Part shown: positions 826-52,954 of the stretch, in pieces
Layout: the number at the start of each line of letters is the position of its first letter
Numbering within the stretch: position 1 is the first letter of the stretch
NCBI GenBank assembly: GCA_030390025.1
Contig: CM059432.1
Location: forward strand, 186,001 to 250,000
Length of the DNA stretch: 64,000 nucleotides
Reading direction: 5' to 3'
Source of the DNA: Squalus acanthias
Lineage: Eukaryota
The notes under the pieces: generated by a model
What the model was told of the DNA's origin: nothing
The model's input: only the letters and a program-made list of their open reading frames with translations
Databases searched by the model: none
Translations under genes and position numbers: made by a program

Positions 826-1924
826 ACATGACCAAGAAGCTGTCAGATTGTCGTAAAAGCCCAACTGGTTCACTCATGTCCCTTTAGGGAAGGAAACCTG
901 CCGTCCTTACCCGGTCTGGGCCTATAGGTGACTCCAGTCCCACACTAACCTGCTTGACCCTGAACTGCCCCATGAAGTAGCCCAGCGAGACACTCAGTTG
1001 TATCAGACCTGCTATTGGGGAACTGGTGATGGGCAAAAGACGTCGGCCTTGCCAGCGACGCCCACATCCCGAGAATGAATAAATAAATAGAAAGTGCTTG
1101 AGAGCGAGTTGAGAGGAATTGTGAATGACAAAAGGAAAATGTTAAATCACAACAGAAAATGCTGGGAACACTCAGCAGGTCAGGCAGCATCGAGGAGAGA
1201 GAGAAACAGAGTCAACGTTTCCAGTCGGGGAACCTTCGTCAGAAGGAAAATGTTAGTTTGGCTAAAGGAAGACAAAGCATCAGGAGCTGATGGGATTAAT
1301 CCTGGGATCCTGAGGGAGATTGAGGAGATAATTGGAGATTATATTACTGGGTCTACTGAGTGTGGATGTGTGCCCGAGGACTGGAGAGTGATCAATGTAT
1401 TACATAGAATGTACAGCACAGAAAGAGGCCATCGGCCCAACTGGTCCGTGCCGGTGTTTCTGTTCCACACGAGCCTCCGCCCACCCCTCTTCATCTCACC
1501 CCATCACCATATCCTTCTATTCCTTTCTCCCTCAAGTGTTTATCTAGCCTCCTATTAAATGCATCTTTACTATTCGCCTCAACCACTCCCTGTGGAAGCG
1601 AGTTCCACATTCTCACCACTCTGTGGGTAAAGAAGTTTCTCCTGAATTCCCTATTGGATTTATTAGTGACTATCTTATATTGAATGGCTCCTAGTTCTGG
1701 TCTCTCTCAACAAGTTGAAACATCTTCTCTACATCTACCCCATCAAACCCTTTCAAAACGTTAAAGACCTCGATCAGGAGTGAAGGTGAAGAGAGTCAGT
1801 GAACTGAGGAGTGAGAATCAGGCAGCTAAATGTTTAAATCTCATTGGTTGGCTGCCTCATGAGCTCATATTTGGGTTGGAACCTCATGCTCTGGAAAGGC
1901 GGAGGGACGAGGAGGCGAAACATA

Positions 1925-2490
1925 ACATAAGATCATAAGAAGTAGGAGCAGGAGTCGGCCATACGACCCCTCGGGCCTGCTCCGCCATTCAATAGGATCA
2001 TGGCTGATCCGAACCTAGACTCACGTCCACTTCCCTGCCCGCTCCCCATAACCCTTCATTCCCTTATCAGCTCGGAAACTGTCTATCTCCGTTTTAAATT
2101 TATTTAATGTCGCAGCTTCCACAGCTCTCTGAGGTAGAAAATTCCATAGATTTACTACCCTCTGAGTGAAGAAGTTTCTCCTCATCTCAGTTTTGAAACG
2201 GCAGCCCCTTATTCTAAGATTATGCCCCCTAGTTCTAGTCTCACCCATCAGTGGAAACATCCTCCCCGCATCCACCCGATCAAGCCCCCTCACAATCTTA
2301 TATGTTTCGATAAGATCGCCTCTCATTCTTCTGTATTCCAATGACTAGAGGCCCAACCTACTCAACCTTTCCTCATAAGTCAACCCCCTCATCTCCGGAA
2401 TCAACCGAGTGAACCTTCTCTGAACTGCCTCTAGAGCAAGTATATCTTTTCTTAAATATTGAAACCAAAACTGTACACAGTATTCCATAT
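1925..2490 (-). mobile_element. 5'-truncated CR1 insertion 'A' with CATA target-site duplication
   Basis: CR1 RT C-terminus in ORF 2021..2341; flanks gaggcgaaa-CATA ... gtattc-CATA-ttgtgtg; empty site at ~15720 (gaggcgaaacatattgtgtg). Confidence 0.9.
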
Positions 2491-2675
2491 TGTGTGTGGA
2501 GTCTGGGATCAGGAGTTGGAGCAGAATTCTCTTTAAGAAGGTTGAGTGAAGCTTGGCTTTAATCTGGTGACTGGTTGATCTAAACTGTGCTGTGTGGTTT
2601 GGGTCTGTGTTGTTGTGTCTTTACTAACGGAGGATCCTCCCTCTCTGTTTCACTCATTCCTGCAGGTTTTAAACC

Positions 2676-2798
2676 ATGGCGGCTGTGAGGGCAACCCTGG
2701 TTATGGACAATGGATCTGGAATAACTAAGGCCGGGTATGCAGGGGACGATGGCCTCTGTGTTTCATTTCCCTCCATCGTGGGGCGTCCTCAAGAACAG
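2676..2798 (+). pseudogene. Actin-like gene copy 1, orphan coding exon 1 (41 codons)
   Basis: [41 protein letters not shown] then GTGAGT donor; upstream acceptor cctgcag; the unit is cut at 3591, so it has no exon 2 of its own. Confidence 0.8.
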
Positions 2799-3171
2799 GT
2801 GAGTCCTACAACGAGACATTGGAAGGAGATTCAATCCTTTGCTTTGGGTGTAAGGTGGGGGCTGGGTCTGCCTTTCCATATTTCAAACAGCCAGCTGAAT
2901 GTTAATGTATCGTCCCGGGGCTGAGATCAACCTTAACCCTCGCTGGCTCTTGCTCTTGCAGTGAGCAATGTCCACAGTGTGTGCGTGTCCCTTTCCCCTG
3001 TTGTGGTGGTTTTTAGATATCAGTGTGGGGCTGTTCCAGTTTGGGTTTTTACTCGAACCCTACTCCTTGGCCCCAGTTTCTCGAAAAACAGGCTGCATCT
3101 CTGATGAAGTGAATGCTAGGGCTTGGTCCAATTGGATTGCGGCCAGAACACGTAAATCAAACGGCAAACAT

Positions 3172-3591
3172 GTTAGAAACATAGAAACAGAAAAATAGGA
3201 GCAGGAGTCGGCCATTCGGCCCTTCGAGCCTGCTCCGCCATTCAATATGATCATGGCTGATCCTCTTTCTCAATACCATATTCCCATTCTCTCCCCATAC
3301 CCCTTGATGCCTTTTGTGTCTAGAAATCTATCTATCTCCTTCTTAAATATATTCAGTGACTTGGCCTCCACAGCCTTCTGTGGTAGAGAATTCCACAGGT
3401 TCACCAGCCTCTGAGTGAAGAAATTTCTCCTCATCTCAGTCCTAAATGTCCTACCCCATATCCTGAGACTGTGACCCCTCGTTCTAGACCCCCCAGCCAG
3501 GGGAAACATCCTCCCTGCATCCAGTCTGTCTAGCCCTGTCAGAATTTTACACGTTTCAATGAGATCCCCTCTCATTCTTCTAAACTCTAGC
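3172..3591 (-). mobile_element. 3' end of intronic CR1 insertion 'B', cut at a deletion junction
   Basis: Matches 16410-16830 up to ...aaactctagc, then switches abruptly to env sequence. Confidence 0.9.
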
Positions 3592-5657
3592 GGCTTTCAA
3601 AAGTTTGGTGAGGTGTTCAGGGAGAGGGGGAATGAGGTATCCGAAATGCGCGACGAATCGCTGCAAGTCGGTAAAATTCTCCTTTACTGTTAGATGAACA
3701 GTGGATGGTTCAGGGATCGGAACAATTCGCTGCTGTGCCACTTGAACTTCAGCCCTGGGTTTAAAACAGAAACTGCTGTCACTCACCGGACACCGGCTAC
3801 GGTTTCCATGCTGGTAGTGTTGCGCTGCAGTGGTAACGCAATATGTTCCACCCCCATGTATGCCACCTGCGGAGGCACATGATCTTGTGCCATTGCCTCC
3901 ATGGTGCAATTCATGGGCTTGGCGCCAGCCGTTCTGAACCCGCACTGTGGTGATAAAAAGGCATTCAAGTGCTGGGGACACAGGATTATGTCTGCTCCCC
4001 TGCCACGACAACCAGAGAGATCTGTACCTGTCATCGTTTGCTCCCAGCGGATGACGTAAGGTGGGACCGCTGCGTAGTGAATGTGGGCTCCCCCCTGAAT
4101 GACACCAATGTTCTCTACCCGATACACCGGGGCGGGCTTTGCTGTGTTGCCCAAAACCGGCATACATAGCACTATACCCATTATGGTATGGTTTGATCGT
4201 CCGCAGTCCACGGGGACTGGGTATGCTTCTGAAGCTAGCCTGAGCTGGCACGGGCTTAATGCGTTCTGAAAAGGGTGGAGCGCCTGCAGGTGTTTGTTAC
4301 TTATCCAGGACGGGACCAAACCTTGTTTTAAATCCTCCAAATTACTGCGGCCCTCGCCCAGTAACCATGCCCCGTAAAGCACGCACACCTCGTTCTGCGC
4401 AGCCTGATCGGACGCGTTCCGATCTTCCCTAATCAGGGCATTTATCGTTCTCGCATGCTTCTCCAGCTCTGCTATAATTTCCTTTAAGTGTAGCGTCATG
4501 GCCTGGTCCTCATGTAACCCAGACCCTACCACCTTATTTTCGTCTGTAAGAATATTCTTTAATTGTGTTTTTAAACCATTAATCTGGGTCTGCAACTCCA
4601 CGTTGTCTAGAGCATTGACCACAGATGTTCCTGTATTAAAAGCGGTGAACATATCGTTCACAATACCCCTTCTTTGTCTCCCCACCTGGCCCAAAACTTC
4701 GTGTGGTGTGGTGTACAAGCTTGTCTTGTCAATCTCTGCAAAATCAAACTCGTAGAATTGTCTAAACATATTGGTCAACAGGACCTGGTACAATTGTTCC
4801 GTCTCTTTGGGGCACCACTCTGGCAACCGCACCTCGGTGAGATTTAAAATCACCGAGGCCACCGCGTAATGTACCCCCTGAAATAGTATCTGGTCTGTAG
4901 GGACCAGCACCAAACCATTCCCGGGTCCCTTACTGGTTTTAGGGCACCCTTCCTCCTGAGCCAAAACCACCAGAATCATGGGCGGGGCCTTGCGTGGGCG
5001 CGTAATGAGTTCAGTGGCGTTTACCGGGATCGGAGAGTATGGGGCTCCGCACCCCCTGGTGCTAACATCCCACCTCATCCCTTTCCCGTTGTCCTGCCAC
5101 TGGTTTACGAAAAATATGGAGATGCCTTTGGGGCAAACGTGCTTTGACCCCCACATACATACATAAATTCCCTCATCCGGTTCCCACCATTTGTCCCAAC
5201 AGACTTTCAATTGTCCGTTAGTCCCCGTGATTGTCTGATGGGTATTATTACCCAAGCGCTCCCACTCAACCGAGGAATTTCTCATATTCTTGTTCAATTT
5301 CCGTAGCCACCACCATCGGCTCAATGGGACATTCCCATTACAAGTCAAACAAATCCTTTTGCCGACGGTGACTCTGATCCTGGGTGCAATGATCCTCACT
5401 TTGGGGCACATCAAAGAAGTCTCTTTGTAGGCAAATCCCGATGTACTGGAGTATTCAGTTGAATTCGTTCCCAGCCATCCTGGCCACCTTCCCTTGTGGA
5501 AATAAGTGGCGGTCTCCTCAGCCTCTCGCCTCCCGGTCCCATCCGTCGCGATGGGGGCCGTGTCCCCGTAGCAACCAAATACCACGACATCCTTGGTGCG
5601 GCCTCGATAGGCCAATCCACATCCGAATGCTGCGAGCACTACCAGAATCTGTTCCAT
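3592..5657 (-). CDS. env: Env-like class I fusion glycoprotein with N-terminal Ig-like domain; 1-nt frameshift at ~3852-3856; truncated before the TM segment
   Basis: Signal peptide MEQILVVLAAFGCGLA (ATG 5657); furin site RQRR|GIVNDMF (4679-4668); heptad region; many N-x-S/T sequons; Cys-rich C-terminal part continues in the frame of ORF 3580..4251 (GGTYCVTT...CPVSDSSFCF). Confidence 0.85.
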
Positions 5658-5670
5658 CCTTCCTTGGTTC

Positions 5671-5690
5671 CTGTGATCAGATAACATGAG
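5671..5690 (-). promoter_or_regulatory. Candidate env splice acceptor
   Basis: ctcatgttatctgatcacag|gaaccaaggaaggATG, 13 nt upstream of the signal-peptide ATG; the pyrimidine tract is weak. Confidence 0.4.
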
Positions 5691-5929
5691 GTAGCCAGCC
5701 TCCCAAGAGTCTCTGGCTTTTGTGAAGGGTGAGCGGGTCCCCTGACCTCGCCTCACGTAAGAAGACATGTGCACTGGATAGATCTTTTTAACTAAACCTA
5801 ATCTAAACTCTCATCATTTATCTTTTACTTATCAAAATTCAACTATAAGACTTACAAAACTTACAAACTATAAAACTTATCACTTATCGTATAAACTGTA
5901 CAGCGCCGCCCGTTCCCAGGGCGGCCTAC

Positions 5930-6967
5930 TCAAATTCTGTGAAGGCGGCCATGAGCTTTTCCCAACGGTGGGAGGGCACCGACCCCTTCCTTTGATCTGC
6001 CGCAGCCTGTCGCTGCTGCGCTGTGACTGGGCTCTCCCTGGGCTGCCTTAGCCTTGAACCTACGCCTTGGGACACTCTGGGGACTTGACCATACCTTCCT
6101 GGGCTGGGGTGTCCGACTTGACCTACGGGGGGCTACCGGGGGCAAGAACTCCAGGACCGACGGACCGGGTTTCGAGACTTCCACCGTCGCGACCTGTGGT
6201 CCCACCACAGCCGCTGGCTCCGCCTCCCTGAACTCGGGATCTGCAGTCTCTGGCACCGCCCTACTTGGCCCAGTAGGCGGCCCTTCACTCGCAGTCCCTA
6301 CCTCCCCCGAGGGCAAGACTTCCAAGGCGGACGGACTGGGTTCTGAGACTTCCATTGCCACGTCCTGTGGTCCCACCACAGCCGCTGGCTCCGCCTCCCC
6401 TAGCTCCGCCCCCCTGAGTTCGGGACCTGCAGCTTCTGCTTCCACCCTGTGTGGACCTCCACTCGCAGTCCCTATCTTCCCTTTACTTGAATCGGGGGCG
6501 AACCTTTCGTCCTCCGATCCCAGCTCCTCTTCGCTCGGGTCACTATCTTGGTCGAGCTCCTCGAACTCTTCCTCATCTGACTCCCAACCCCAATAAGGGA
6601 TCCTACATTTTGCTAGGATGTCCTCTCCCCTGATGCAAGCTGCTTTGCCAGCCTGCGTGCCCTGCGGTCCTACCCGGGGCTGAGAGTCCCCACTCGCAGG
6701 TCTGGCCCCTCCCCTAAGACAGGCCACCGCCCCTGCTTGTTTCTGTGAAATCTCACCTGCTGGAGGCTGCAGATTTCTATCCTGTTTTATTTTGAGCAAC
6801 TCTGCTACGATGGCTCTAAGCTGCCCTTCTAGCCCATCTACCTTCCCCATTAAACGGGTGTTCTCCTCCCGTAAGGCCTGCTCTTTTAACCTGGCCTCCT
6901 TACAGGAGACCCCCTCCTGTGCGTGTCTTTCAAGGGGACACAGGTAGGCAGGCTGCACCGGTTCCAG
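5930..6967 (-). CDS. ORFX: non-enzymatic ORF in the pol position, in frame with gag across a TGA-CTG stop
   Basis: ...GAC TTC TGA CTG GAA CCG GTG CAG..., open for ~345 codons; coiled coil, acidic tract, ~58-aa internal duplication, basic C-terminus; no D(S/T)G, YxDD, RNase H or integrase motifs. Confidence 0.6.
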   Translation of the reverse strand: MEPVQPAYLCPLERHAQEGVSCKEARLKEQALREENTRLMGKVDGLEGQLRAIVAELLKIKQDRNLQPPAGEISQKQAGAVACLRGGARPASGDSQPRVGPQGTQAGKAACIRGEDILAKCRIPYWGWESDEEEFEELDQDSDPSEEELGSEDERFAPDSSKGKIGTASGGPHRVEAEAAGPELRGAELGEAEPAAVVGPQDVAMEVSEPSPSALEVLPSGEVGTASEGPPTGPSRAVPETADPEFREAEPAAVVGPQVATVEVSKPGPSVLEFLPPVAPRRSSRTPQPRKVWSSPQSVPRRRFKAKAAQGEPSHSAAATGCGRSKEGVGALPPLGKAHGRLHRI

Positions 6968-8714
6968 TCAGAAGTCCGGGTTGCCTGGGGCTGTTGCTAC
7001 CTTCCCGTGCGAAATCATGAGAGACCGCATGGCTCCTAACATTGATTCTATCGCATCGGGATGGATAGGCACACCAGCTCCTCTCTCAGAGACAGGCGCT
7101 TGGGTTCGGGCTGCGGGATTTTTATCCCTGGAGTCCTTCCAGGGGTTCCTGCAGTTTTTTCGCCAGTGACCTGTCTTTCCGCACCCGTAACAGACACCAC
7201 TGGCCTGTGGGGCGCGGTTTCCCTCCTGATGCCACTCCCTTTGAGCCGGGGCTGTGGGCCGTGCCTCATGCACCTTTCCCTTAAGGGGACGCGCTCCCGT
7301 GCTCCTAGTGTTACGATACCCTATCGTGAGTCGATTTAGGACCGACTCCTCTGTAGTGGCGGGGTTAGTGGGATCAAACCACGCTTTGGCCTGCTCCCTG
7401 ACGGCTGGCAAACTGTTGGCTACTAAACACCTGAGCCAATGAGTTAAACCGACACCGTCCAGATAATTGCGCCCTGGCGCACCTGGGCAGCTACGCTGGT
7501 ATACTGGCCACAGCCTGTCGGCGAAAACCTTCGGGGGTTCTCCCTCCATCTCAACTGTCTGACCCAATCTAATGAACGGACCTTCGTCGTCCGCCCCCAA
7601 CACTTCTAGGACCTCATCCCTTAATTGCTCATAGGTCCTATTTCCCCTTTTGCTCGCGTCAGGAGAGACACTGGAGGATCGAGCTGTCTAAGGAGAACAG
7701 CAGCATTTTAGCCCTTTCCCCATCATCGCAGCCGTTAATGGCTGCGGTCTGCTCTACCTCCCTGAAATGTACGGAAGGGTCGTCTGACTCGGACAGCTTC
7801 CGTACGTGACTGATCATAGCCCTCAGCTGGTGTGCATTGTGCGGCAACACAAGCTGGCTGAGGAGATTCCCCGCTTCCCCACCGTCTCCGTTCGGGCCCC
7901 TCTTGATACCCGTGACCGGACACAGCGGTCCCGGCTTCACTACTACCTCAGGGGGCTGTACTACCTCGGGGACCTCTTCCTCTACTTCTACCACTTCCTC
8001 CCTTACCCAGGTTGCCGAATAGCTGGGTGGCGCGGAGGGCACAGTGGCAAATACCTCCTCTGCTTTGTTAGGTAGGGATTTTTGAAATTCCCCACCCACC
8101 GGCGGCTGGTGTGCTGACGGGCTGATAAGGCACACCATGCCGTGCGCTTTATTCAGGGCCTCTTTAAGGTTCCCTATCTCTCTCTGGCAGACGCCGTGGT
8201 CGGCCCCCTCATGTTTATCTTCGAGGGCCATTTTATATGCCGTCCTAACTCCCTTTAAGCTCTCTTCCAGGGCTTTTATTTGAGCAGCTAGGCGGGCACA
8301 TCGTTCCCTGATTCTGCCCTCATTTAATTTTGCCTCAGTGACCTGGCACTCGAGGTAATCTATTTTCGCCTCATGGTGGTTGGCGACTAACTGGCGTTCC
8401 TGATGCAACGCATTTAAGGACACGATGAGCTGCTGCCCCCCCACGACCTTTTCTTCCATCTCCACCTCCAAACCCTTGATCTGAGCTGCCTGTGCTACGA
8501 TGACCTGGTCCAAAATCTGGACTTGCCTTTTATAACACATCAGCCAAACCGCATTCTCTACCGATTTTTTGTGTTCTTTGCTACCTGTCCACCTGATGGC
8601 TGCATCTAGCAGACGCTTATCCACCAGCAGGTCGATTATCCATCTCTTAGTCAAATTAACCTTCCGAAAAACATAATCGGCTATTCTCTCTTCCATAACA
8701 TTTCGCCCATTCAT
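6968..8714 (-). CDS. gag: Gag polyprotein, split by a 1-nt frameshift at ~7662-7666
   Basis: ORFs 7659..8768 and 6968..7603 join (ILQCL/PDASKRGNRTYEQLRDEVLEVLG); N-terminal coiled coil, PSAPPSY, capsid-like region with MHR-like GQTVEMEGEPPKVFADRL, zinc knuckle CYGCGKTGHWRKNC (7192-7151); start taken as the first ATG downstream of the PBS. Confidence 0.88.
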
Positions 8715-8749
8715 ACCAGGGTCTAACACATTACTTTCTCGCTGCCAGT

Positions 8750-8767
8750 GTCCCTTCGTGGTCGCCA
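8750..8767 (-). promoter_or_regulatory. Primer-binding site, tRNA-Arg (UCG-type)
   Basis: TGGCGACCACGAAGGGAC is the reverse complement of GTCCCTTCGTGGTCG-CCA, the 3' end of vertebrate tRNA-Arg(TCG) as recalled; lies 5 nt inside the LTR end. Confidence 0.85.
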
Positions 8768-8772
8768 TTATC

Positions 8773-11336
8773 TGTAAGGGGTTCGCGTGGCTCTGTGCTT
8801 AGCCTGGGTGCTAGTGCGGGGTTAGGCCTTGTTGCCTGTTCTGGTCTCCAGCCAGCCTGGTAGCACTAGACACCTGTGAGTGGTTCGACCCACTCGCCCT
8901 TACGGTTCTGACACTGGACTTAGGTGCGAGAGCAGTAAATGCAGAGAAAAACTCAGGTAGACCCGGTTGAATAGTACGAAATGGAAAATCTTTATTGCAT
9001 ATTATTCAAGATTACGAAATACATGTCATGAGCACAGATTAATGACAGTACAAACTTACATACATTTATGCAACTAGGTTTAGGGAAATGAGGAGCGCAC
9101 GACACATCGTAAAAAGGGGCACACATTATAATTATCCTTAAAACAAAAACCCTCCCCTATCAATACCTGTCCTAATCTAGATCTGTAGGATTGAGAACCA
9201 TGCTCACCACTCGTGATAACTCGGAGAATTCTAAAACGATGCTCGGATGGTTTCGCCACAGCACCTGACTATTCACGTGTTGATCAGGGGTCTCTGTACC
9301 CCACTTGTTTACTCGCTTTGCTCCGGCTAGCAGGCTGGACCGTCTGCTGTCATGAAGATCTGTGTTGACCTCGGAACTCTGATAAAACTCAAAGAAGAGT
9401 CTTCCTGTGCCCGACACCAGTTAGCCGGTAGAATTCAAAGAAGAGTCTTTCTGGATCGACACCAGTTCGATAAAATTCGAAGAAAAGTCTTCCTGCGTCA
9501 GTTCGTGCAGTAACCTATAGAGTTCAAAAATGGTCTATATATTTTCGGGCGCGGTCGGGCTTTACTGACCACGGCGGCACGTGGATTCTTCTTCTTCTCT
9601 TCTCATCTCGTTTCGTCTCGTTGGGCCTTCGGGTCCCTACACCGTCTACCGACCCTCGGGATGGTGTACCCGCTTACCGGCCTTCACAGCCCAGCTCTTC
9701 ACAGATCTTCGCGGCAAGCCACGAGGTTGACTCCCGGAAGATCAGCGGACCAAGAGCTCGGTGGGCCACAAACGAGAGCCAGGGGTCGAATCAAGAGAAA
9801 GATGGACGTTTGTTTACTACAGTTATAATACTGTAATTCTTTATCTCCTGCCCAATCTTAATGTTCATCTTTTGTCATGTTTTGGCGCTCAAACTTCTTG
9901 TATGGGGTGGTTCTTGTCGTCAATGGGTTTCGGTGATACTTGTAACTGTCTAAGTACCCGTTAATGTTTCTCCCATTGTGGAACCGGCTAGGAATCTCCC
10001 TGGAGGGGTTTTGGGGCGCTCCGAATTCTTGCTGTGAGTACCCGCGAACGGCTCTCTCATCGTAGAGCCGTGGGGAATTTGCGTATCAATGTCTTTGGAT
10101 GGGCCCTTAATTGCCCAGTACAATAGCCCTCGTTTGTGCATGGAAAACCGATTCCAGCACTTATGTTCTCTTAGGTGTACAAAATGCAAAACGATCGCGT
10201 CTTGTCTTATTTCATTATGCTGAGTACTGTCCGATCTTGCTGAAATGTTTATTGAAACGCCATCTTGTCTGCCTACTGAAAAGTCTAGAAACTTCTGCCA
10301 CGAGGCGCGGCGGCCATTTTACAGGCTGCTTGTGTCCGTTTTTGAACCTGACAGCATTTTGCTGAAATAAAGCTGTTTTTACGAAACTGTATGGGGTAAA
10401 AATTCAGTTGGTTGTGCCTCCCGTTAGCGCCTTAAGAGGGTGCTAATGGGGCGCAAAGCCGCTAACGCCCGGGCGCAGCGATGTTTGCGCCGCTCGGGAA
10501 CTTAACTAGAGATTGTGCGGCGGCGCTAAACTTTACCGCTGCGACCACCTGCGCGCGCAGATTGTGATGTCATTCCATGGTGCAACGCCCTTGTGGCGCC
10601 CCGGAGCGGAAATTGAGTGGCGCCCCCTGCCTTACCGCCTGGCGCATCCAACGACCAGAAGACTGGAACGCTATCAATCGCTGTGGGGCTGGGGGGGGCG
10701 CTATTTAAAGGGGGCCTCTTCCTGTCTTTTATTGTTGGTGGCATTTTTGAACTACGCATTCTGAGAGAGAGAGGGAGAGACTTCTGGAGAGATTCAACGT
10801 TGTGTGAAGGAGTTTTGGGTACTGAGCAGCACTTTGCAGGTTCATTTTGATTTGCCATTCCTTGTATCGATTTAGCAGAGACTGTGGGAGCTGCACTCTG
10901 AGCTCTTTGCCTGGTACTCTCCATTGTTCTTTCCAGCACATTTGATGTGCAAGTCTCTCCAGGCCGAGATTCAAGGCAGCAATGAACAGGATGTGGATGG
11001 AAAGCAAGATTAACCATCCCCTTTAAGAACTGGCCCGTGCCATTGTGTGTGTGTTCCATTGCTGACTGACATCACATGAGCTTCGCCAGCGCTCTGAGTT
11101 AGCGCCTCACTCCTCGGCCTTTGCGCCTTAAGACAGGTGTGCAGCGCCTGATTTAGCGCTCCACTCACCTCCCGGGCCGGTAAAAGTGAAGTTTCCAGTC
11201 AGTGCCGATAATTAGCGCCAGGCGCTAATATTTGCGTCCGGACGATATTTGCGCCCCAAATGGGGCGCGACCTAATTTTTTCCCCCTATGTCTCTATCTC
11301 GTTATTTCGAAATCGCGATAATTTGCGAATTCTACA
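8773..11336 (-). repeat. 5' LTR (~1.67 kb excluding the inserted MITE)
   Basis: On minus it starts TGTAGAATTCGC at 11336 and ends CCCCTTACA at 8773; TATATA 9541-9536, AATAAA 8996-8991, U5 hairpin 8897-8876. Confidence 0.85.
10393..11286. mobile_element. Non-autonomous DNA transposon (PIF/Harbinger-type MITE) copy 1, inside the LTR
   Basis: Termini GGGGTAAAAATT...AATTTTTTCCCCC; 3-bp TSD TAT; near-identical to 13733-14625 and 38097-38989. Confidence 0.8.
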
Positions 11337-13302
11337 TAAGTCAAAGGAGGAAGCTTATAAAGTTGCCAGAAAAAGCAGTCAGCCTGAGGATTGGGATCTT
11401 TTTAGAAATCAGCAACAGGGGGAGCAAGAAATTGATAAAGAAAGGGAAAATGGAATATGAGCACAATCTAGCGAAAAATATAAAAACAGATTGTAAAAGC
11501 TTCTATAGGTATGTGAAAAGGAAAAGACTGGCGAAGGTAAATGTAGGTCCTTTACAGTCAGAGACGGGAGAATTTATAATGGGGAATGAGGAAATGGCAG
11601 TGAAATTCAATAAATACTTTGTTTCTGTCTTCACGGAGTCAGACACAAAAAACCTCCCAGAAATACGAGAAAATCAAGGGTGTGACGAGAATGAGGAACT
11701 TAAAGAAATTATTAGTAAAAAAACAGTACTAGCAAAATTAATGGGACTAAAAGTCGATAAATCCCAAGGACCGGAAGACCTATTTCCTAGGGTTTTGAAT
11801 GAGGTGGCCATTGGAATGGTGGACGCATTGGTTGTCATCTTCCAAAATTCTATAGATTCTGGAACGGTTCCTGCAGATTGGAGGATAGCAAATGTAACCC
11901 CGCTTTTTAAGAAAGGAGGGAGAGAGAAAACGGGGAACTACAGACCTGTTATAAAGGATGCAATAATTGGGCACTTAGAAACTAATAGTAAGATTGGGCA
12001 GAGTCAACATGAATTTATGAAAGGGAAATCCTGTTGGACAAACCTATTGGAGTTCTTTGAGGATGGAACTAGTGGAGAAGACAAAGGGGAACCAGTAGAT
12101 GTGGTGTATCTGGATTTTCAGAAAGCCTTCGATAAGGTCCCACACAAGAGGTTGGTGAACAAAATTAGGGCACATGGAATTGGGGGTAATATACTAGCAT
12201 AGATTGAGAATTGGTTAACAGATAGAAAACAAAGAGTAGGGATAAACGAGTCTTTTTCAGGATGACAGGCTGTGACTTGTGGGGTACCGCAAGGATCAGT
12301 GCTTGGGCCCCAGCTATTCACAATCTATATCAATCATTTGGATGAGGGGACTAAATGTAACATTTCCAAATTTGCTGATGATACAAAGCTAGGTGGCAGT
12401 GTCAGTTGCGAAGAGGATGTGAAGAGGCTTCAAGGGGATCTCGACAGGTTCAGTGAGTGGGCGAGAACATGGCAGATGGAATATAATGTGGATAACTGTG
12501 AAGTTATCCACTTTGGTAGAAAAAACAGAAAGGCAGAGTATTTCCTAAATGGTGAAAGATTGGGGAATGCAGATGCTCAAAGGGACCTGGGTGTCCTTGT
12601 ACATGAGTCATTGAAAGTGAATGTGCAGGTGCAGCAAACCATTGGGAAGGCAAATGGTATGCTGGCCTTCATTACAAGAGAATTTGAGTACAGGAGTAAA
12701 GAAGTCTTACTCCAATTATATAGGGCCTTGGTGAGACCACACCTGAAGTACAATGTACAATTTTGGTCTCCTTACCTAGGAAGTATATACTTACCATAGA
12801 GGGAGTGCAACGAAGGTTCACGAGATTGATTCCTGGGATGGCGGGACTGTCGTATGAGAAGAGATTGAGTAAACTAGGCCTTTATTCTCTTGAATTCAGA
12901 AGAATGAGAGGGGATCTCATTGAAGCATACAAAATTATTACAGGGCTTGATAGGGTGGATGCTGGGAGAATGTTTCGCTTGGCTGGGAGTCTAGAACCAG
13001 GGGCCACAGCCTTAGGATAAAGGGTAGGCCATTCAGGACTGAGATGAGAAGAAATGTCTTCACACAGAGGGTGGTGAATCTTTGGAATTCTCTACCCCAG
13101 AGGGCTGTGGAGGCTCAGTCATTGGGTATATTCAAAACAGACGTCGATAGATTTCTGACTAGTAAGGGCATCAAGGGATATGGCGATAGGGCCGGTGAAT
13201 GGAGTTGAGGCAGAAGATCAGCCATGATCTCATTGAATGGTGGAGCAGGCTCGAAGGGCCGAATGGCCGACTCCTGCTCCTATTTTTCTATGTTTCTATG
13301 TT
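11337..13302 (+). mobile_element. CR1 ORF2 3' part (degenerate), segmental paralog of 34432-36401
   Basis: RT motifs [28 protein letters not shown]; same lesions as the paralog (ILA-TAG; deletion after NYRPV). Confidence 0.92.
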
Positions 13303-14625: not shown

Positions 14626-15912
14626 TTAGTGCCTGACCACGGTGATTTTAGCCCCATTCGCGAAATTGACCAACTGGTTCACTCATGTCCCTTTAGGGAA
14701 GGAAACCTGCCGTCCTTACCCGGTCTGGTCCTATAGGTGACTCCAGTCCCACACTAACCTGGTTGACCCTGAACTGCCCCATGAAATAGCCCAGCGAGAC
14801 ACTCAGTTGTATCAGACTTGCTATTGGGGAACTGGGGATGGGCAAAAAACGTCGGCCTTGCCAGCGACGCCCACATCCCGAGAATGAATAAATAAAAAGT
14901 GCTTGAGAGCGAGTTGAGAGGAATTGTGAATGACAAAATGAAAATGTTAAATCACAACAGAAAATGCTGGGAACACTCAGCAGGTCAGGCAGCATCGAGG
15001 AGAGAGAAACAGAGTCAACGTTTCCAGTCGGGGAACCTTCGTCAGAAGGAAAATGTTAGTTTGGCTAAAGGAAGACAAAGCATCAGGAGCTGATGGGATT
15101 AATCCTGGGATCCTGAGGGAGATTGAGGAGATAATTGGAGATTATATTACTGGGTCTACTGAGTGTGGATGTGTGCCCGAGGACTGGAGAGTGATCAATG
15201 TATTACATAGAATGTACAGCACAGAAAGAGGCCATCGGCCCAACTGGTCCGTGCCGGTGTTTCTGTTCCACACGAGCCTCCGCCCACCCCTCTTCATCTC
15301 ACCCCATCACCATATCCTTCTATTCCTTTCTCCCTCATGTATTTATCTAGCCTCCTATTAAATGCATCTTTACTATTCGCCTCAACCACTCCCTGTGGTA
15401 GCGAGTTCCACATTCTCACCACTCTCTGGGTAAAGAAGTTTCTCCTGAATTCCCTATTGGATTCATTAGTGACTGTCTTATATTTATGGCCCCTAGTTCT
15501 GGTCTCCCCCAACAAGTTGAAACATCTTCTCTACATCTACCCCATCAAACCCTTTCATTACGTTAAAGACCTCGATCAGGAGTGAAGGTGAAGAGAGTCA
15601 GTGAACTGAGGAGTGAGAATCAGGCAGCTAAATGGTTTAATCTCATTGGTTGGCTGCCTCATGAGCTGATATTTGGGTTGGAACCTCATGCTCTGGAAAG
15701 GTGGAGGGACGAGGAGGCGAAACATATTGTGTGTGGAGTCTGGGATCAGGAGTTGGAGCAGAATTCTCTTTAAGAAGGTCGAATGAAGCCTGGCTTTAAT
15801 TTGGTGACTGGTTGGTCTAAACTGTGCTGTGTGGTTTGGGTCTGTGTTCTTGTGTCTTTACTAACGGAGGATCCTCCCTCTCTGTTTCACTCATTCCTGC
15901 AGGTTTTAAACC

Positions 15913-18900
15913 ATGGCAGCTGTGAGGGCAACCCTGGTTATGGACAATGGATCTGGAATAACTAAGGCCGGGTATGCAGGGGACGATGGCCCCTGTGTTT
16001 CATTTCCCTCCGTCGTGGGGCATCCTCAAGAACAGGTGAGTCCTACAACGAGGCATTGGAAGGAGATTCAATCCTTTGCTTTGGGTGTAAGGTGGGGGCT
16101 GGGTCTGCCTTTCCATATTTCAAACAGCCAGCTGAATGTTAATGTATCGTCCCGGGGCTGAGATCAACCTTAACCCTCGCTGGCTCTTGCTCTTGCAGTG
16201 AGCAATGTCCACAGTGTGTGCGTGTCCCTTTCCCCTGTTGTGGTGGTTTTTAGATATCAGTGCGGGGCTGTTCCAGTTTGGGTTTTTACTCGAACCCTAC
16301 TCCTTGGCCCCAGTTTCTTGAAAAACAGGCTGCATCTCTGATGAAGTGAATGCTAGGGCTTGGTCCAATTGGATTGCGGCCAGAACAAATAAACCAAACG
16401 GCAAACATGTTAGAAACATAGAAACAGAAAAATAGGAGCAGGAGTCGGCCATTCGGACCTTCGAGCCTGCTCCGCCATTCAATACGATCATGGCTGATTC
16501 TATATCTCAATACCATATTCCCGCTCTCTCCCCATACCCCTTGATGCCTTTTGTGTCTGGAAATCTATCTATCTCCTTCTTAAATATATTCAGTGACTTG
16601 GCCTCCACAGCCTTCTGTGGTAGAGAATTCCACAGGTTCACCACCCTCTGAGTGAAGAAATTTCTCCTCATCTCAGTCCTAAATGTCCTACCCTGTATCC
16701 TGAGACTGTGACCCCTCGTTCTAGACCCCCCCAGCTAGGGGAAACTTCCTCCCTGCATCCAGTCTGTCTAGCCCTGTCAGAATTTTACACGTTTCAATGA
16801 GATCCCCTCTCATTCTTCTAAACTCTAGCAGATACAGGCCTAGTCGACCCAATCTCTCCTCATACGACAGTCCTGCCATCCCAGGAATCAGTCTGGTGAA
16901 CCTTCGCTGCACTCCCTCTATGGCAAGTATATCCTTTCTTAGGTAAGGTGACCAAAACTGCACACAGTACTCCAGGTGTGGTCTCACCAAGGCCCTGTAC
17001 AACTGTAGTAAGACATCCTTGCTCCTGTACTCAAATCCTCTTGCAATGAAGGCCAACATGCCATTTGCCTTCCTAACTGCTTGCTGCACCTGCATGTTTG
17101 CTTTCAGTGACTGGTATACAAGGACACCCAGGTCCCTTTGTACATCAGCATTTCCCAATCTATCACCATTTCAATAATACTCTGCCTTTCTGTTTTTCCT
17201 ACCGAAGTGTATAACTTCACATTTATCCACGTTATACTGCATCGGCCATGTATTTGCCCACTCACTCAACTTGTCTAAATCGCCTTGAAGCCTCTTTGCA
17301 TCCTCCTCACAACTCACAATCCCACCTAGTTTCATGTCGTCAGCAAACTTGGAAATATTACATTTGGTTCCCTCATCCAAATCATTGATATATATTGTGA
17401 ATAGCTGGGGCCCAAGCACTGATCCCTGCAGTACCCCACTAGTCACCGCCTGCCACCCCGAAAAAGACCCATTTATTCCTACTCTCTGTTTCCTGTCTGT
17501 TAACCAATTTTCAATCCATGCCAGTATATTACCCCCAATCCCATGTGCTTTAATTTTGCACACTAACCTCTTATGTGGGACTTTATCAAAGGCCTTCTGA
17601 AAATCCAAATACACCACATCCATTGGTTCTCCGTTATCTAGTCTACCAGTTACATCCTCAAAAAACTCCAGTAGGTTTGTCAAACACGATTTCCCTTTCA
17701 TAAATCCATGTTGACTTTGTCTAATCCCGTTGATATTTTCTAAGTGTCCTGTTATCACATCCTTTATAATAGACTCTAGCATTTTCTCAACTACTAATGT
17801 TAGGCTAACCGGTCTGTAGTTCCCTGTTTTCTCTCTCCCTCCTTTTTTAAATAGTGGGGTTACATTTGCCACCCTCCAATCTGCAGGAACTGTTCCATAG
17901 TCTATAGAATTTTGGAAGATGACAACCAATACATCCACTATTTCCATGGCTACCTCTTTTAGTACTCTGGGATGCAGATTATCAGACCCTGGGGATTTAT
18001 CAGCTTTCAGTCCCATTAATTTCTCCAGCACTATTTTTTTACTAATACTAATTTCCTTTACTTCCTCCTTCTCACTCGACCCTTGGTTCCCTCGCATTTC
18101 TGGGAAGTTATTTGTGTCCTCTTCCCTGAAGATAGAACCAAAGTATTTGTTTAATTGCTCTGCCATTTCCTTGTATCCCATTATAAATTCTCCCGTTTCT
18201 GACTGTGAGGGACCTACATTTGTCTTCACTAATCTTTTTCTTTTTACATACTTGTAGAAGCTTTTAAAGTCCACTTTTATGTTCCTTGCAAGTTGACTCT
18301 CATACTCTATTTTTCCCCTCTTAATCAATCTCTTGGTCCTTTTTTGCTGAACTCTAAACTGCTCCCAATCCTCAGGCTTGCTACTTTTTCTGGCAATTTT
18401 ATATGACTCCTCTTTGGATCGAATACTATCCTTAATTTCTTTTGTTAGCCATGGTTGGGCCACTTTTCATTTTGTGTTTTTGCACCAGAAAGGAATGTAT
18501 AACTGTTGCAATTCATGCATTCGTTCCTTAAATGTTAGCCATTGCCTATCCACCGTCCTGCCTTTTAATGAAGCTCCCCAATCTATCATAGCCAACTCAC
18601 TCCTCATACCTTCGTAGTTTCCTTTGTTTAGATTTAGGACCCTAGTTTCGGATTGAACAACTTCACTTTCCATTTTAATGAAGAATTCTATCATGTTATC
18701 ATCACTCTTCCCTAAAGGACCCCGCACAACAAGATTATTAATGAACCCCTTCTCATTGCACAATACCCAAACTAGGATAGCCTGTTCCCTAGTTGGCTCC
18801 TCAACGTACTGGTCTAAAAAACAATCTCGTACACACCCCAGGGATTCATCCTCCACAGTATTATTGCTAATTTGGTTTGGCCAGTCTATATGTAGATTAA

Positions 18901-51972: not shown

Positions 51973-52600
51973 TTGGAGGGTCAGTACTGAGGGAGCGCTG
52001 CACTGTCGGAGGGGCAGGACTGAGGGAGCGCTTCACTGTCGGAGGGGCAGTCCTGAGGGAGCGCCGCACTGTCGGAGGGGCAGGACTGAGGGAGCACTTC
52101 ACTGTCGGAGGGGCAGTACTGAGGGAGAGCCGCACTGTCGGAGGGGCAGTACTGAGGGAGCGCCGCACTGTCGGAGGGGCAGTACTGAGGGAGCGCTGCA
52201 CTGTCGGAGGGACAGTACTGAGGGAGTGCCTCACTGTCGGAGGGACAGTACTGAGGGAGTGCCGCACTGTCGGAGGGGCAGTACTGAGGGAGTGCTGCAA
52301 TGTCGGAGGTGCCGTCTTTCGGATGAGACTTTAAACCGAGGTCCCGTCTGCTCTCAGGTGGATGCAAAAGATCCCATGGCACTATTTCGAAGAAGAGCCA
52401 ACATTTATCCCTCAACCAACATTACTGAAACAGATTAACTGCTCATTATCACACTGCTGTTTGTGGGAGCTTGCTGTGCGCAAATTGGCTGCCACGTTTC
52501 CTACATTACAACAGTGACTACTCTTCAAACGTACTCCAGTGGCAGTGAATCGCTTTGGGTGGTTCGGTGGTGAAAGGCGCTAGAGAAAGTCTTTCTTTCT
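51973..52600 (+). mobile_element. 33-bp units continuing into the 3' body of the same SINE
   Basis: GGAGGTGCCGTCTTTCGGATGAGAC...AAAGGCGCTAGAG...TCTTTCTT. Confidence 0.8.
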
Positions 52601-52954
52601 TGTATTAATCACCATCGCTGTGAAGCAAAGTGGAGAATGGCCGGTCTCTCGAACCTGGATAAACGGGCAGGGGTCCCACCACAACAAATCATTTCGAATG
52701 TCCTTTGTGCTGTGGATGTGGGCAATGTTACATTTATTGCCCTTGTTGCCCTGCACACATTAAGAGGCGACCATGTGGAGTAGGACTGGAGTCACGTGCA
52801 GACCCAGACCGGGCAGAATCCCCTCCCTGAAGAACAATCCGTCAGTTTTCACCATCACTGAATCTGATTTCCCGATTTATTAACTGCAATTTCCCAACAG
52901 GGATGATGGGATTGGAACCCACCACCTTTGGATTGCGAGTCCAGTACCAGAACT

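What the first reader, a model, noticed from the sequence alone, without database searches (positions are those of the whole stretch)
5106..5405. Immunoglobulin-like domain at the front of a viral fusion glycoprotein
Seen: RVTVGKRICLTC-x8-WWW...GQLKVC...PDEGIYVC. This fits the Ig V/I-set signature: G-x-x-hydrophobic-x-L-x-C on strand B, Trp on strand C, L-x-V on strand E and D-x-G-x-Y-x-C on strand F, with 61 residues between the canonical Cys. Four further Cys are placed so they could form B-E and A-G bridges. The domain sits between the signal peptide and the fusion module (GPGNGLVL...RQRR|GIV). I do not know of a retroelement Env with an Ig-superfamily domain. Inference: a captured host Ig domain acting as a receptor-binding or immune-decoy module.
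Basis: partly seen in the sequence, partly recalled or inferred. Interest (0 to 1): 0.85.

Follow-up and report, generated by a model that had tools for sequence, protein, structure and literature searches.

The report
Ig-like domain on shark retroviral Env
A very abundant endogenous retrovirus of a cartilaginous-fish-type genome has a paramyxovirus-F-like envelope protein with an extra, probably immunoglobulin-like domain at its front, most likely for binding cells; this domain layout seems undescribed.

Summary
Window 5106-5405 (minus strand) encodes aa 122-221 of a 661-aa env ORF (3783-5768). It carries the full Ig V/I-set signature: GxxIxLxC, WWW, LxV, DxGxYxC, with Cys143 and Cys204 61 residues apart.

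Evidence for an Ig fold points one way, but each piece is weak:
- Pfam Ig_3 scores below threshold (E 0.009).
- Language-model neighbours are Ig families.
- AlphaFold predicts eight strands in A-B-C-C'-D-E-F-G order, at pLDDT 43-70.
- Fold searches on a poor domain model return almost only Ig domains (best Z 4.9).
- The profile comparison with 30 host Ig exons gives P 0.006.

The rest of Env is a paramyxovirus/pneumovirus-F-like class I fusion protein (Foldseek E 1e-10). It is the kind known from lokiretrovirus and foamy virus Env.

The element is a retrovirus with a dual RNase H and is present in very many copies. Among intact copies, dN/dS is 0.10 in the Ig-like part and 0.10 overall.

Skate, shark and frog relatives carry the same or a comparable N-terminal Ig-like module. 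Other relatives carry a different module or none.

No host donor was found, so "captured host domain" is unproven and any capture would be old. A receptor-binding role is inferred. The window copy itself is defective. I rate this a new variant of a known kind, of moderate interest.

The parts
3783..5768 (-). env ORF of the window copy, 661 aa, ending early after a frame change
   Evidence: Intact copies elsewhere in the genome are 820 aa.
5610..5657 (-). signal-peptide-like hydrophobic stretch, aa 38-53 (MERILVVLAAFGCGLA)
   Evidence: read from the sequence; not run through a predictor
5406..5609 (-). conserved N-terminal segment, aa 54-121, with the nearly invariant HxGRWPGxLGxNSxxYSS motif
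   Evidence: invariant and nearly invariant columns; dN/dS 0.10; fold unknown (pLDDT < 50)
5106..5405 (-). Ig-like domain, aa 122-221 (the finding)
   Evidence: signature; Pfam Ig_3 E 0.0089 below cut-off; Atlas Ig neighbours; eight predicted strands; Foldseek and VIA-align rows nearly all Ig; hhalign P 0.006 against host Ig exons
4950..5105 (-). linker, aa 222-273, Pro-rich, one N-glycosylation sequon
   Evidence: pLDDT < 50
4668..4949 (-). F2-like segment, aa 274-367, ending in the RQRR furin-type site (window 4668-4679)
   Evidence: (pLDDT 81-90)
3852..4667 (-). F1-like segment, aa 368-639: fusion-peptide region, long heptad helix, Cys-rich beta domains
3591..3851 (-). continuation of the F1-like part in another frame. 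Homology to intact copies stops at 3591, so the second heptad region, membrane anchor and tail are missing.
   Evidence: ORF 3580..4167; one-base length difference near 3850 in all four runs laid
5930..6850 (-). ORF matching the C-terminal tail that follows integrase in sister copies; the integrase core and the rest of pol are absent here
6968..7549 (-). gag part with a CCHC zinc knuckle
   Evidence: zf-CCHC E 6e-4, 20.2 bits, cut-off 20.8
7659..8768 (-). upstream gag-region ORF with a coiled-coil stretch
   Evidence: only weak coiled-coil-type Pfam hits
9933..10393 (-). LTR piece: the same sequence lies downstream of env in sister copy L005
   Evidence: 96.3% over 461 nt

Best explanation
Window 5106-5405 encodes a diverged immunoglobulin-superfamily-type domain (I/V-set-like). 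It has a Cys143-Trp-Cys204 core and probably two extra disulfides.

The domain sits in a roughly 220-residue N-terminal extension of a paramyxovirus-F-like class I fusion protein. That protein is the Env of a high-copy endogenous retrovirus that was active until recently.

Proposed mechanism:
- Env enters the ER by the signal peptide.
- It is cut at RQRR(364-367) into an N-terminal subunit (extension plus F2-like piece) and a membrane-anchored F1-like subunit.
- The Ig-like module serves as the attachment or receptor-binding part, which a bare F scaffold lacks.
- The F-like core then carries out fusion.

Shown here: the signature, its conservation, purifying selection, the F-like fold of the core, and variation of the N-terminal module among relatives. 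Inferred: the Ig fold (about 0.8), the cleavage, and the receptor-binding role (about 0.5).

The window copy is defective. It has a frame change near 3850, its 3' end is lost at 3591, and pol is missing.
For: Ig-like fold
- All signature positions are present.
- Pfam Ig_3 is the top hit for the 100-aa piece: E 0.0089, 16.9 bits.
- N-terminal pieces of 7 family members were scanned. An Ig-clan family scored E <= 1 in 5 of 7; the best were Ig_3 E 0.0011 and V-set E 0.0014.
- ESM Atlas features for aa 115-235 give top score 0.90, and 9 of the 10 best hits that have a family share the Ig clan. The control piece, aa 521-641, gave Baculo_F clusters and no Ig.
- The AlphaFold2 full-length model has eight strands: 123-127, 139-144, 153-158, 170-172, 178-183, 186-191, 200-205 and 216-219. 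Cys143 falls on the second, the Trp run on the third and Cys204 on the seventh.
- Foldseek on the domain-only model: the 50 rows printed are entries with antibody, light-chain or nanobody variable domains, judged by their titles.
- VIA-align against 48,161 representative chains: 44 of 50 rows are Ig domains by title. The best is obscurin Ig59, Z 4.9, rmsd 2.5 A over 74 residues.
- hhalign of the Env N-terminal profile against 30 host Ig_3 exons from the same genome: score 18.6, P 0.006, 72 columns in the canonical register.
- In 200 column shuffles the mean score was 11.0, sd 2.3, max 20.3, and 4 of 200 reached 17.1. I did not count how many reached 18.6.
- Three other Env segments scored P 0.09-0.39 against the same exons.

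F-like core
- Foldseek of the full model: hPIV3 F 1ztm E 1e-10, prob 1.00. All listed rows are paramyxovirus or pneumovirus F.
- The family profile hits foamy virus gp130 at E 0.001.

Function and selection
- 52 of 67 scored genomic matches have no stop codon inside the match.
- Among the 11 intact 820-codon ORFs found in 20 loci, dN/dS is 0.10 in the Ig part and 0.10 overall, with pS 0.13.

Modularity of the N-terminal part
- Ig-like N-terminal parts occur in Chiloscyllium P0016, Pelodytes P0022 and the frog-type P0037. P0037 scores P 3.7e-6, probability 87%, against host Ig exons.
- Mustelus P0015 and Pristiophorus P0026 have a different Cys-rich module. P0039 has none.
- The published lokiretrovirus Env consensus proteins whose starts were shown in the supplement passages go from the signal peptide straight into the PGPxxGI core motif.
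Against: - No Ig profile reaches its curated cut-off: 0 of 7 pieces. Two of 7 pieces gave no Ig hit at all.
- Both structure models are weak in this region. pLDDT is 43-70 in the full model, and the domain-only model has mean pLDDT 35.
- Foldseek found no match at E <= 0.001.
- The best VIA-align Z, 4.9, is below the level that the tool's own note calls trustworthy.
- The hhalign probability is only 6%, and in global mode P rises to 0.15.
- The lines of evidence are not independent, because all of them read the same Cys-Trp-Cys pattern.
- Nothing here tests binding.
- dN/dS in the Ig part is not raised as it often is in receptor-binding domains. The 11 copies were chosen for being intact and close to the query, which biases dN/dS downward.
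Confidence: 0.55

Rival explanations
1. The region is a beta-rich N-terminal domain unrelated to the immunoglobulin superfamily. On this view the Cys/Trp/DxGxYxC pattern is convergent or accidental.
For: All profile and fold scores are below the usual thresholds. The domain-only model is poor. PDB holds very many antibodies, so any small sandwich model tends to hit them in Foldseek.
Against: The signature is complete and in the right order and spacing (0 of 20,000 shuffles). The clustered VIA-align library, which is not antibody-heavy, also returns Ig domains in 44 of 50 rows. Control Env segments score no better than chance against Ig exons. The Atlas control piece gives a different family.
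Confidence: 0.15
2. It is an Ig-like domain whose main role is not receptor binding. It could be a shield or cap over the fusion core, an immune decoy, or a modulator that mimics a host adhesion or immune molecule.
For: aa 54-273 carry four N-glycosylation sequons. Purifying rather than diversifying selection acts among copies. Viral Ig-like decoys are well known in large DNA viruses (recalled, not tested).
Against: A retrovirus has one Env, which must supply attachment. Relatives swap or lack the module while keeping the core, as expected of a receptor-specifying part. The module is covalently part of the fusion protein and is not a secreted product. None of this is a direct test.
Confidence: 0.15
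3. The domain is a recent capture of a host Ig exon by this element.
For: It has an IgSF-type signature of the cellular kind. The best profile alignment is to host I-set/Ig_3-type exons (31% identity over 72 columns).
Against: - No non-Env protein was found at E <= 0.001 in 1.84 billion representatives. All 8 hits that cover the N-terminal region are Env pieces.
- The same domain is present at 69-71% identity in a skate and 48-53% in other shark-type sequences.
- Comparable modules occur in frog elements, and these also lack a host match: 3 hits, all Env.
- The phmmer E-value cut-off would miss a donor scoring below about 40 bits.
Confidence: 0.08
4. The N-terminal Ig-like module arose by duplication of the Ig-like domain II that F-type proteins already contain.
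For: Domain II of F and of foamy virus Env has an Ig-superfamily fold (passage in PMC11468914).
Against: hhalign of the N-terminal profile against three core segments of the same family gave P 0.10-0.33 over 11-23 columns. Those core segments also lack the Cys-Trp-Cys signature.
Confidence: 0.04

Closest known systems
Lokiretrovirus Env (Wang and Han, Mol Biol Evol 2021, PMC7947760)
   Same: Retroviral Env of paramyxovirus-F type with signal peptide, RxxR-type cleavage, fusion peptide, coiled coil and TM. The pol has a dual RNase H. A PGPxxG(I/L)V-type motif opens the core. Some of these elements have a coiled-coil gene in front of gag (abstract and passages; supplement passages).
   Different: In the published consensus Envs whose starts were shown in the passages, the core follows the signal peptide directly, with no 220-aa extension. 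The authors found lokiretroviruses in 0 of 6 chondrichthyan genomes. The Xenopus relative of the present family (P0052) reads differently from the Xenopus-type lokiretrovirus Env passage shown beside Loki-Xtr (by eye only). An RT phylogeny was not done here.
Foamy virus Env gp130 (Fernandez et al., Sci Adv 2024, PMC11468914)
   Same: Retroviral Env whose core has the F fold. The present family's profile matches gp130 domain I/II sequence at E 0.001-0.005. The paper states that F is a minimal scaffold that accepts receptor-binding modules at the N terminus or between the subunits.
   Different: The foamy virus RBD is a different, larger domain inserted between the F2-like part and the cleavage site. 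Here the extra module is N-terminal to the F2-like part. This element's gag has a CCHC knuckle. That foamy virus Gag lacks one is recalled, not tested. Its RT scores higher against MLV RT (144 bits) than PFV RT (87 bits) in PDB.
Paramyxovirus and pneumovirus F
   Same: Best structural matches of the core are F proteins (E 1e-10 to 1e-6). The F2-like piece is about 94 residues, with furin-type cleavage, two heptad regions and a C-terminal anchor.
   Different: There is no Pfam Fusion_gly hit at E <= 1. F has no N-terminal extra domain and relies on a separate attachment protein in paramyxoviruses (established knowledge).
Shark/frog foamy-like ERVs (Aiewsakun and Katzourakis, Nat Commun 2017, PMC5512871)
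   Same: The same unusual host pairing, sharks plus frogs. For those elements no gene other than pol could be detected (passages), so their env is undescribed.
Cellular IgSF I-set/V-set domains
   Same: Signature, strand order, and the best profile and fold matches.
   Different: Scores are below family thresholds. The Trp run lies 9-11 residues after the B-strand Cys. There are four additional Cys.
Baculovirus F / errantivirus Env
   Same: Atlas feature neighbours of the core piece aa 521-641 are Baculo_F clusters (0.85-0.86; a lead only).
   Different: There is no Pfam Baculo_F hit at E <= 1. Those are insect and invertebrate elements with a Ty3/gypsy pol.

Membership tests
Immunoglobulin superfamily domain (Pfam Ig clan: Ig_3, I-set, V-set) | Profile match above the curated cut-off | tested here: not met
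   Ig_3 scores 16.9 bits against a cut-off of 30 for the window piece. 0 of 7 family pieces reach a cut-off; 5 of 7 give an Ig-clan hit at E <= 1.
Immunoglobulin superfamily domain (Pfam Ig clan: Ig_3, I-set, V-set) | Cys (strand B), Trp (strand C), Cys (strand F) with DxGxYxC, 55-75 residues between the Cys | tested here: met
   C143, W152-154, D198-x-G-x-Y-x-C204, 61 residues apart. Conserved in P0003, P0004, P0007 and P0013.
Immunoglobulin superfamily domain (Pfam Ig clan: Ig_3, I-set, V-set) | Two-sheet Greek-key beta sandwich of 7-9 strands | tested here: inconclusive
   Eight strands in the right order at pLDDT 43-70. Domain model pLDDT 35. Foldseek best E 0.0077. VIA-align best Z 4.9. 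The rows are nearly all Ig.
Immunoglobulin superfamily domain (Pfam Ig clan: Ig_3, I-set, V-set) | B-F disulfide actually formed | not testable with these tools
   Needs a structure or disulfide mapping.
F-type class I fusion proteins (paramyxovirus/pneumovirus F, lokiretrovirus Env, foamy virus Env core) | Domain I-II-III fold of F | tested here: met
   Foldseek 1ztm E 1e-10, prob 1.00; 224 matches at E <= 0.001. Core pLDDT 80-95.
F-type class I fusion proteins (paramyxovirus/pneumovirus F, lokiretrovirus Env, foamy virus Env core) | Basic cleavage site followed by fusion-peptide region and a long heptad helix; second heptad region and TM at the C terminus | tested here: met
   RQRR 364-367; helices 370-409 and 423-481; helix 718-749; TM helix 767-801 in intact copy P0008. 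The window copy lacks the last part.
F-type class I fusion proteins (paramyxovirus/pneumovirus F, lokiretrovirus Env, foamy virus Env core) | Sequence-profile match to Pfam Fusion_gly (PF00523) or Foamy_virus_ENV | tested here: not met
   No such hit at E <= 1 for P0001 or P0008. The family profile does hit foamy virus gp130 chains at E 0.001.
Lokiretroviruses | Dual RNase H (tether plus RNase H) in pol | tested here: met
   RT_RNaseH_2 E 2.9e-20 and RNase_H E 4.4e-20 in a sister element in L021, whose env is 93% identical in protein. Canonical retroviruses share this feature.
Lokiretroviruses | RT groups with lokiretroviruses, sister to other retroviruses | not tested
The authors' own screen found none in 6 chondrichthyan genomes.
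Foamy-like ERVs / Spumaretrovirinae | RT/Pol groups with foamy viruses | tested here: inconclusive
   By PDB bit scores only: MLV-type RT 144, PFV PR-RT 87, PFV integrase 120, Ty3 170. No tree was built.
Foamy-like ERVs / Spumaretrovirinae | Gag without Cys-His box (recalled property of foamy viruses) | tested here: not met
   A CCHC knuckle, CYGCGKTGHWRKNC, is present in the gag ORF (zf-CCHC E 6e-4).

The most novel reading that the evidence does not exclude
F-type retroviral Envs of sharks, skates and frogs form a lineage that exchanges its N-terminal receptor-binding cassette. The variants are IgSF-type domains of cellular origin in several branches, a Cys-rich module in others, and none in lokiretroviruses. 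On this reading the Ig-like cassette in this very successful element mimics a host cell-adhesion or immune-receptor domain and uses that molecule's natural partner as its entry receptor. This would be the first retroviral Env whose receptor-binding part is a bona fide captured IgSF domain.
Probability: 0.2. Interest if true: 0.75.

Novelty: new variant of a known kind. Interest (0 to 1): 0.5.

Why it matters
F-like fusion proteins are seen as a minimal scaffold onto which viruses bolt receptor-binding modules (stated in PMC11468914). This family would show that idea inside retroviruses. The same conserved F-like core appears with an Ig-like module, with another module, or with none.

If the module is a true IgSF domain, it points to a concrete class of receptors, namely partners of Ig-type adhesion or immune molecules. 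It would also explain why earlier surveys of shark and frog elements could not recognise env at all.

The element is abundant, many of its env ORFs are intact, and they are under purifying selection. The domain can therefore be expressed and tested directly.

Tried and rejected
Sequence and structure searches
- phmmer of the window Env against PDB sequences: 0 hits at E <= 10.
- Profile of the N-terminal alignment A3 against PDB: only two flagellar chaperone chains at E 0.6-1, in the coiled-coil part. No Ig chain.
- The domain-only AlphaFold model with a 10-row alignment had mean pLDDT 35, too poor to decide the fold.
- hhalign of the window-type profile against divergent N-terminal parts: P0037 P 0.16, P0022 P 0.055, P0016 P 0.0023 over 32 columns. 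Common ancestry of the modules across the family is therefore not shown.
- Internal duplication of core domains was rejected.

Host donor
- None was found. The word-based search warns that finding nothing is weak evidence.

Expression
- No RNA holder is listed. The 8 runs from 2 studies are only guessed to be RNA.
- Contigs from 4 of these runs cover the env stretch at 90-99% likeness. Contig depth cannot rank parts, so the drop in depth upstream of 5775 is not used.

Earlier notes of this scan
- Nothing by place or by sequence.

Literature
- Searches listed no paper on an Ig-type domain in an F-like retroviral Env.
- The word 'immunoglobulin' occurs 0 times in PMC7947760 (main text and supplement), PMC9040795, bioRxiv 10.1101/2023.10.26.564294, PMC13709493, PMC5512871 and PMC10699275. 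It occurs twice in PMC11468914, once for domain II of the core and once in a cited title.
- The J Virol 2023 paper on cartilaginous fish endogenous foamy virus (PMC9972966) is not held and may describe such an env.
- UniProt's automatic name for relative P0016 is 'Ig-like domain-containing protein', so pipelines have flagged the profile, though not as part of an Env.

Not done
- Direct alignment with published lokiretrovirus or foamy-like ERV sequences, because those sequences are not session sequences.
- The primer-binding site and LTR ends were looked at but not resolved.
Full report
WHAT IS THERE

The finding lies in a 661-aa ORF on the minus strand, window 3783..5768. Window 5106-5405 is aa 122-221.
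- G136KRIC140LTC143
- W152WW154
- L187KVC190
- D198EGIYVC204
- C121 and C212

C143 and C204 are 61 residues apart.

A regular expression for the whole signature matched 0 of 20,000 shuffles of the protein. A reduced form matched 3 of 20,000, and matched only this site in the six-frame translation of the whole window. The pattern was written after the fact, so these figures are generous.

THE ELEMENT

Upstream on the same strand lie three ORFs:
- a coiled-coil ORF (7659-8768)
- a gag piece with a CCHC knuckle (6968-7549; zf-CCHC E 6e-4)
- an ORF (5930-6850) that in sister copies is the tail following integrase

A neighbouring sister element, whose Env is 93% identical in protein, has RVT_1, RT_RNaseH_2, RNase_H, Integrase_H2C2 and rve upstream of env. 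This is a retrovirus-type pol with a dual RNase H.

The 3.7-Gb genome holds very many copies:
- The first look gave 13,821 candidates, and the best 67 were scored.
- All 67 span Env residues 3-639 or more, at 92-100% identity.
- 52 of 67 have no stop codon inside the match.
- Intact copies encode 820 aa, with a second heptad region, a membrane anchor and a short tail.

The window copy is defective:
- It aligns with an intact copy only over 3591-6710 (96.9%).
- It changes frame near 3850, where contigs of all four public runs laid differ in length by one base.
- It has lost everything 3' of 3591, and it lacks pol.

THE FUSION MODULE

AlphaFold2 was run on an intact 820-aa copy with a 39-row alignment. 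Mean pLDDT was 57.8, but 80-95 through most of the core.

Foldseek against PDB put paramyxovirus and pneumovirus F proteins on every listed row. The best was hPIV3 F 1ztm at E 1e-10, prob 1.00.

A profile of the family matched foamy virus gp130 chains at E 0.001-0.005 in the Cys-rich beta domains. Atlas feature neighbours of aa 521-641 were Baculo_F clusters, which is a lead only. No Pfam fusion-protein family scored at E <= 1.

The core is therefore an F-type class I fusion protein: an F2-like piece (aa 274-367), RQRR, a fusion-peptide region, a long helix, beta domains, a second heptad region and a TM. This kind of Env is known in lokiretroviruses (PMC7947760; abstract and passages) and, structurally, in foamy viruses (PMC11468914; passages).

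IS THE N-TERMINAL PIECE IG-LIKE?

For:
- Pfam Ig_3 is the top hit for the 100-aa piece (E 0.0089, 16.9 bits, cut-off 30).
- Of N-terminal pieces from seven family members, five give an Ig-clan hit at E <= 1. The best are 0.0011 and 0.0014. Two give none, and none reaches a cut-off.
- Atlas features of aa 115-235 point to Ig families: top score 0.90, and 9 of the 10 best hits with a family are in the Ig clan. The control piece from the core gave a different family.
- The full-length model has eight strands that place Cys143 on strand B, the Trp run on C, L187-V189 on E and Cys204 on F. pLDDT there is only 43-70.
- A domain-only model was poor, with mean pLDDT 35. Even so, the 50 Foldseek rows printed are all entries with antibody-type variable domains, judged by title, at E 0.008-0.05. 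No match had E <= 0.001.
- VIA-align against 48,161 clustered chains gave Ig domains in 44 of 50 rows by title. The best was obscurin Ig59, Z 4.9, rmsd 2.5 A over 74 residues. The tool warns that Z under 8 may reflect only a common arrangement.
- I took 30 Ig_3 exons from the same genome and compared their profile with the Env N-terminal profile. The score was 18.6, P 0.006, over 72 columns in the canonical register. In 200 column shuffles the mean was 11.0, sd 2.3, max 20.3, and 4 of 200 reached 17.1. I did not count how many reached 18.6. The reversed sequence gave P 0.16.
- Three other Env segments gave P 0.09-0.39 against the same exons.

Against:
- The hhalign probability is 6%, and in global mode P is 0.15.
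- All these tests lean on the same few residues, so they are not independent.

I put the Ig-type fold at about 0.8.

CONSERVATION AND SELECTION

Twenty loci were fetched, and 11 of them hold intact 820-codon ORFs. Among those 11, pairwise dN/dS is 0.10 in the Ig-like part and 0.10 overall, with pS about 0.13-0.16. Env, including this module, was therefore under purifying selection while the copies diverged. The copies were chosen as intact and most similar to the query, which lowers dN/dS.

Identity to a skate relative (Rhinoraja longicauda, P0003/P0004) is 69-71% in the module. In the flanking and core parts it is 71-84%.

RELATIVES

The exhaustive phmmer search found 46 proteins at E <= 0.001. 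I read 28 of them, and all held Env-family sequence. The other 18 I did not read. Their best matched stretches lie in Env aa 265-798, outside the Ig-like region.

Source names were available for some: Rhinoraja, Pristiophorus, Mustelus, Chiloscyllium, Heterodontus, Pelodytes, Xenopus and, for a further relative, Lithobates.

Eight of the 46 cover the N-terminal region, and all eight are Env pieces, some embedded in chimeric gene models.

More distant full-length members differ at the N terminus:
- P0016 (Chiloscyllium; automatic UniProt name 'Ig-like domain-containing protein') and P0022 (Pelodytes) keep a Cys-Trp-Cys pattern.
- P0037 (frog type) has a Cys-less V-set-like domain that matches the host Ig exon profile at P 3.7e-6, probability 87%.
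- P0015 and P0026 have a different Cys-rich module.
- P0039 goes from the signal peptide straight into the core.
- So do the published lokiretrovirus Env consensus proteins whose starts were shown in the supplement passages.

Homology among the Ig-like modules of the different branches is not shown: P is 0.0023 for P0016, and 0.055-0.16 for the others.

ORIGIN

No host protein was found as a donor, either for the window-type module or for the frog-type one. The word-based search for the latter gave 3 hits, all Env. A recent capture is therefore unlikely. An old cellular origin remains plausible but is unproven. Duplication of the core's own Ig-like domain II finds no support.

WHICH RETROVIRUS?

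This is not settled.
- Wang and Han found lokiretroviruses in 0 of 6 chondrichthyan genomes, including the species that holds P0016 (supplement table).
- Aiewsakun and Katzourakis describe a shark-plus-frog clade of foamy-like ERVs in which only pol could be detected (passages).
- A later survey of shark and jawless-fish elements also reports that no Env domain was detected (passages).
- The host pairing fits that clade. However, this gag has a CCHC knuckle, and the RT scores higher against MLV-type RT than against PFV RT in PDB.

MECHANISM

The proposed sequence is: signal peptide, furin-type cleavage at RQRR, an N-terminal subunit carrying the Ig-like module, and an F1-like subunit doing fusion.

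The attachment role of the module rests on three points:
- A retrovirus has a single Env, which must bind the cell.
- A bare F scaffold normally needs a separate attachment function.
- The N-terminal module is the part that varies among relatives while the core is kept.

That is inference. No binding test was possible.

VERDICT

The Ig reading is probably right but not proven. Host capture is not shown. The domain architecture is a new variant of the known F-type retroviral Env, not described in the papers I could search. One relevant paper could not be read.

Noticed in passing
L005 and L021 (own genome, contig C7), compared with window 8782-10388: In the sister copy next to L005, sequence matching the window's LTR and leader (window 8782-9367 and 9788-10388) is joined directly to the middle of integrase, and env follows. 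That copy therefore keeps LTR-leader-integrase tail-env but lacks gag and most of pol. The window copy keeps gag and has a different internal deletion. Env-retaining deletion derivatives may be common in this family. Whether any derive from spliced env RNA was not tested.
   Followed up: partly
window 847-2763 and 14656-16000: Long direct repeats about 13.8 kb apart, 95-100% identical in several blocks, enclose the retroviral remnant and other repeats. They may be a segmental duplication or the ends of a larger element.
   Followed up: no
window 2676-2924 (+): A short ORF starts with an actin-family-like N terminus (…[17 protein letters not shown]…SIVGRP…). Its first part (to 2763) lies inside one of the repeated blocks.
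   Followed up: no
window 2021-2326 (-), 3270-3575 (-), 11288-12202 (+): Two related 101-aa ORFs (MRGDLIET…) and a reverse-transcriptase-like ORF look like non-LTR retrotransposon pieces. The one at 3270-3575 lies just past the point where the env homology ends, at 3591.
   Followed up: no
window 52001-64000: G+C rises to 0.60-0.64, with a strong negative GC skew (-0.16 to -0.35) and positive AT skew over 12 kb. This is unlike the rest of the window.
   Followed up: no
window 5610-5768 (-), env aa 1-53: The first 53 codons of env show much lower synonymous divergence among copies (pS 0.04 against 0.12-0.20 elsewhere) and dN/dS 0.32. This suggests an overlapping constraint such as a splice or regulatory signal, or an alternative start at Met38.
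   Followed up: no
window 6136-6235 and 6307-6406: A 100-nt direct repeat, 83% identical, lies inside the ORF that follows integrase. It matches the repeated acidic/Pro-rich protein segments there.
   Followed up: no
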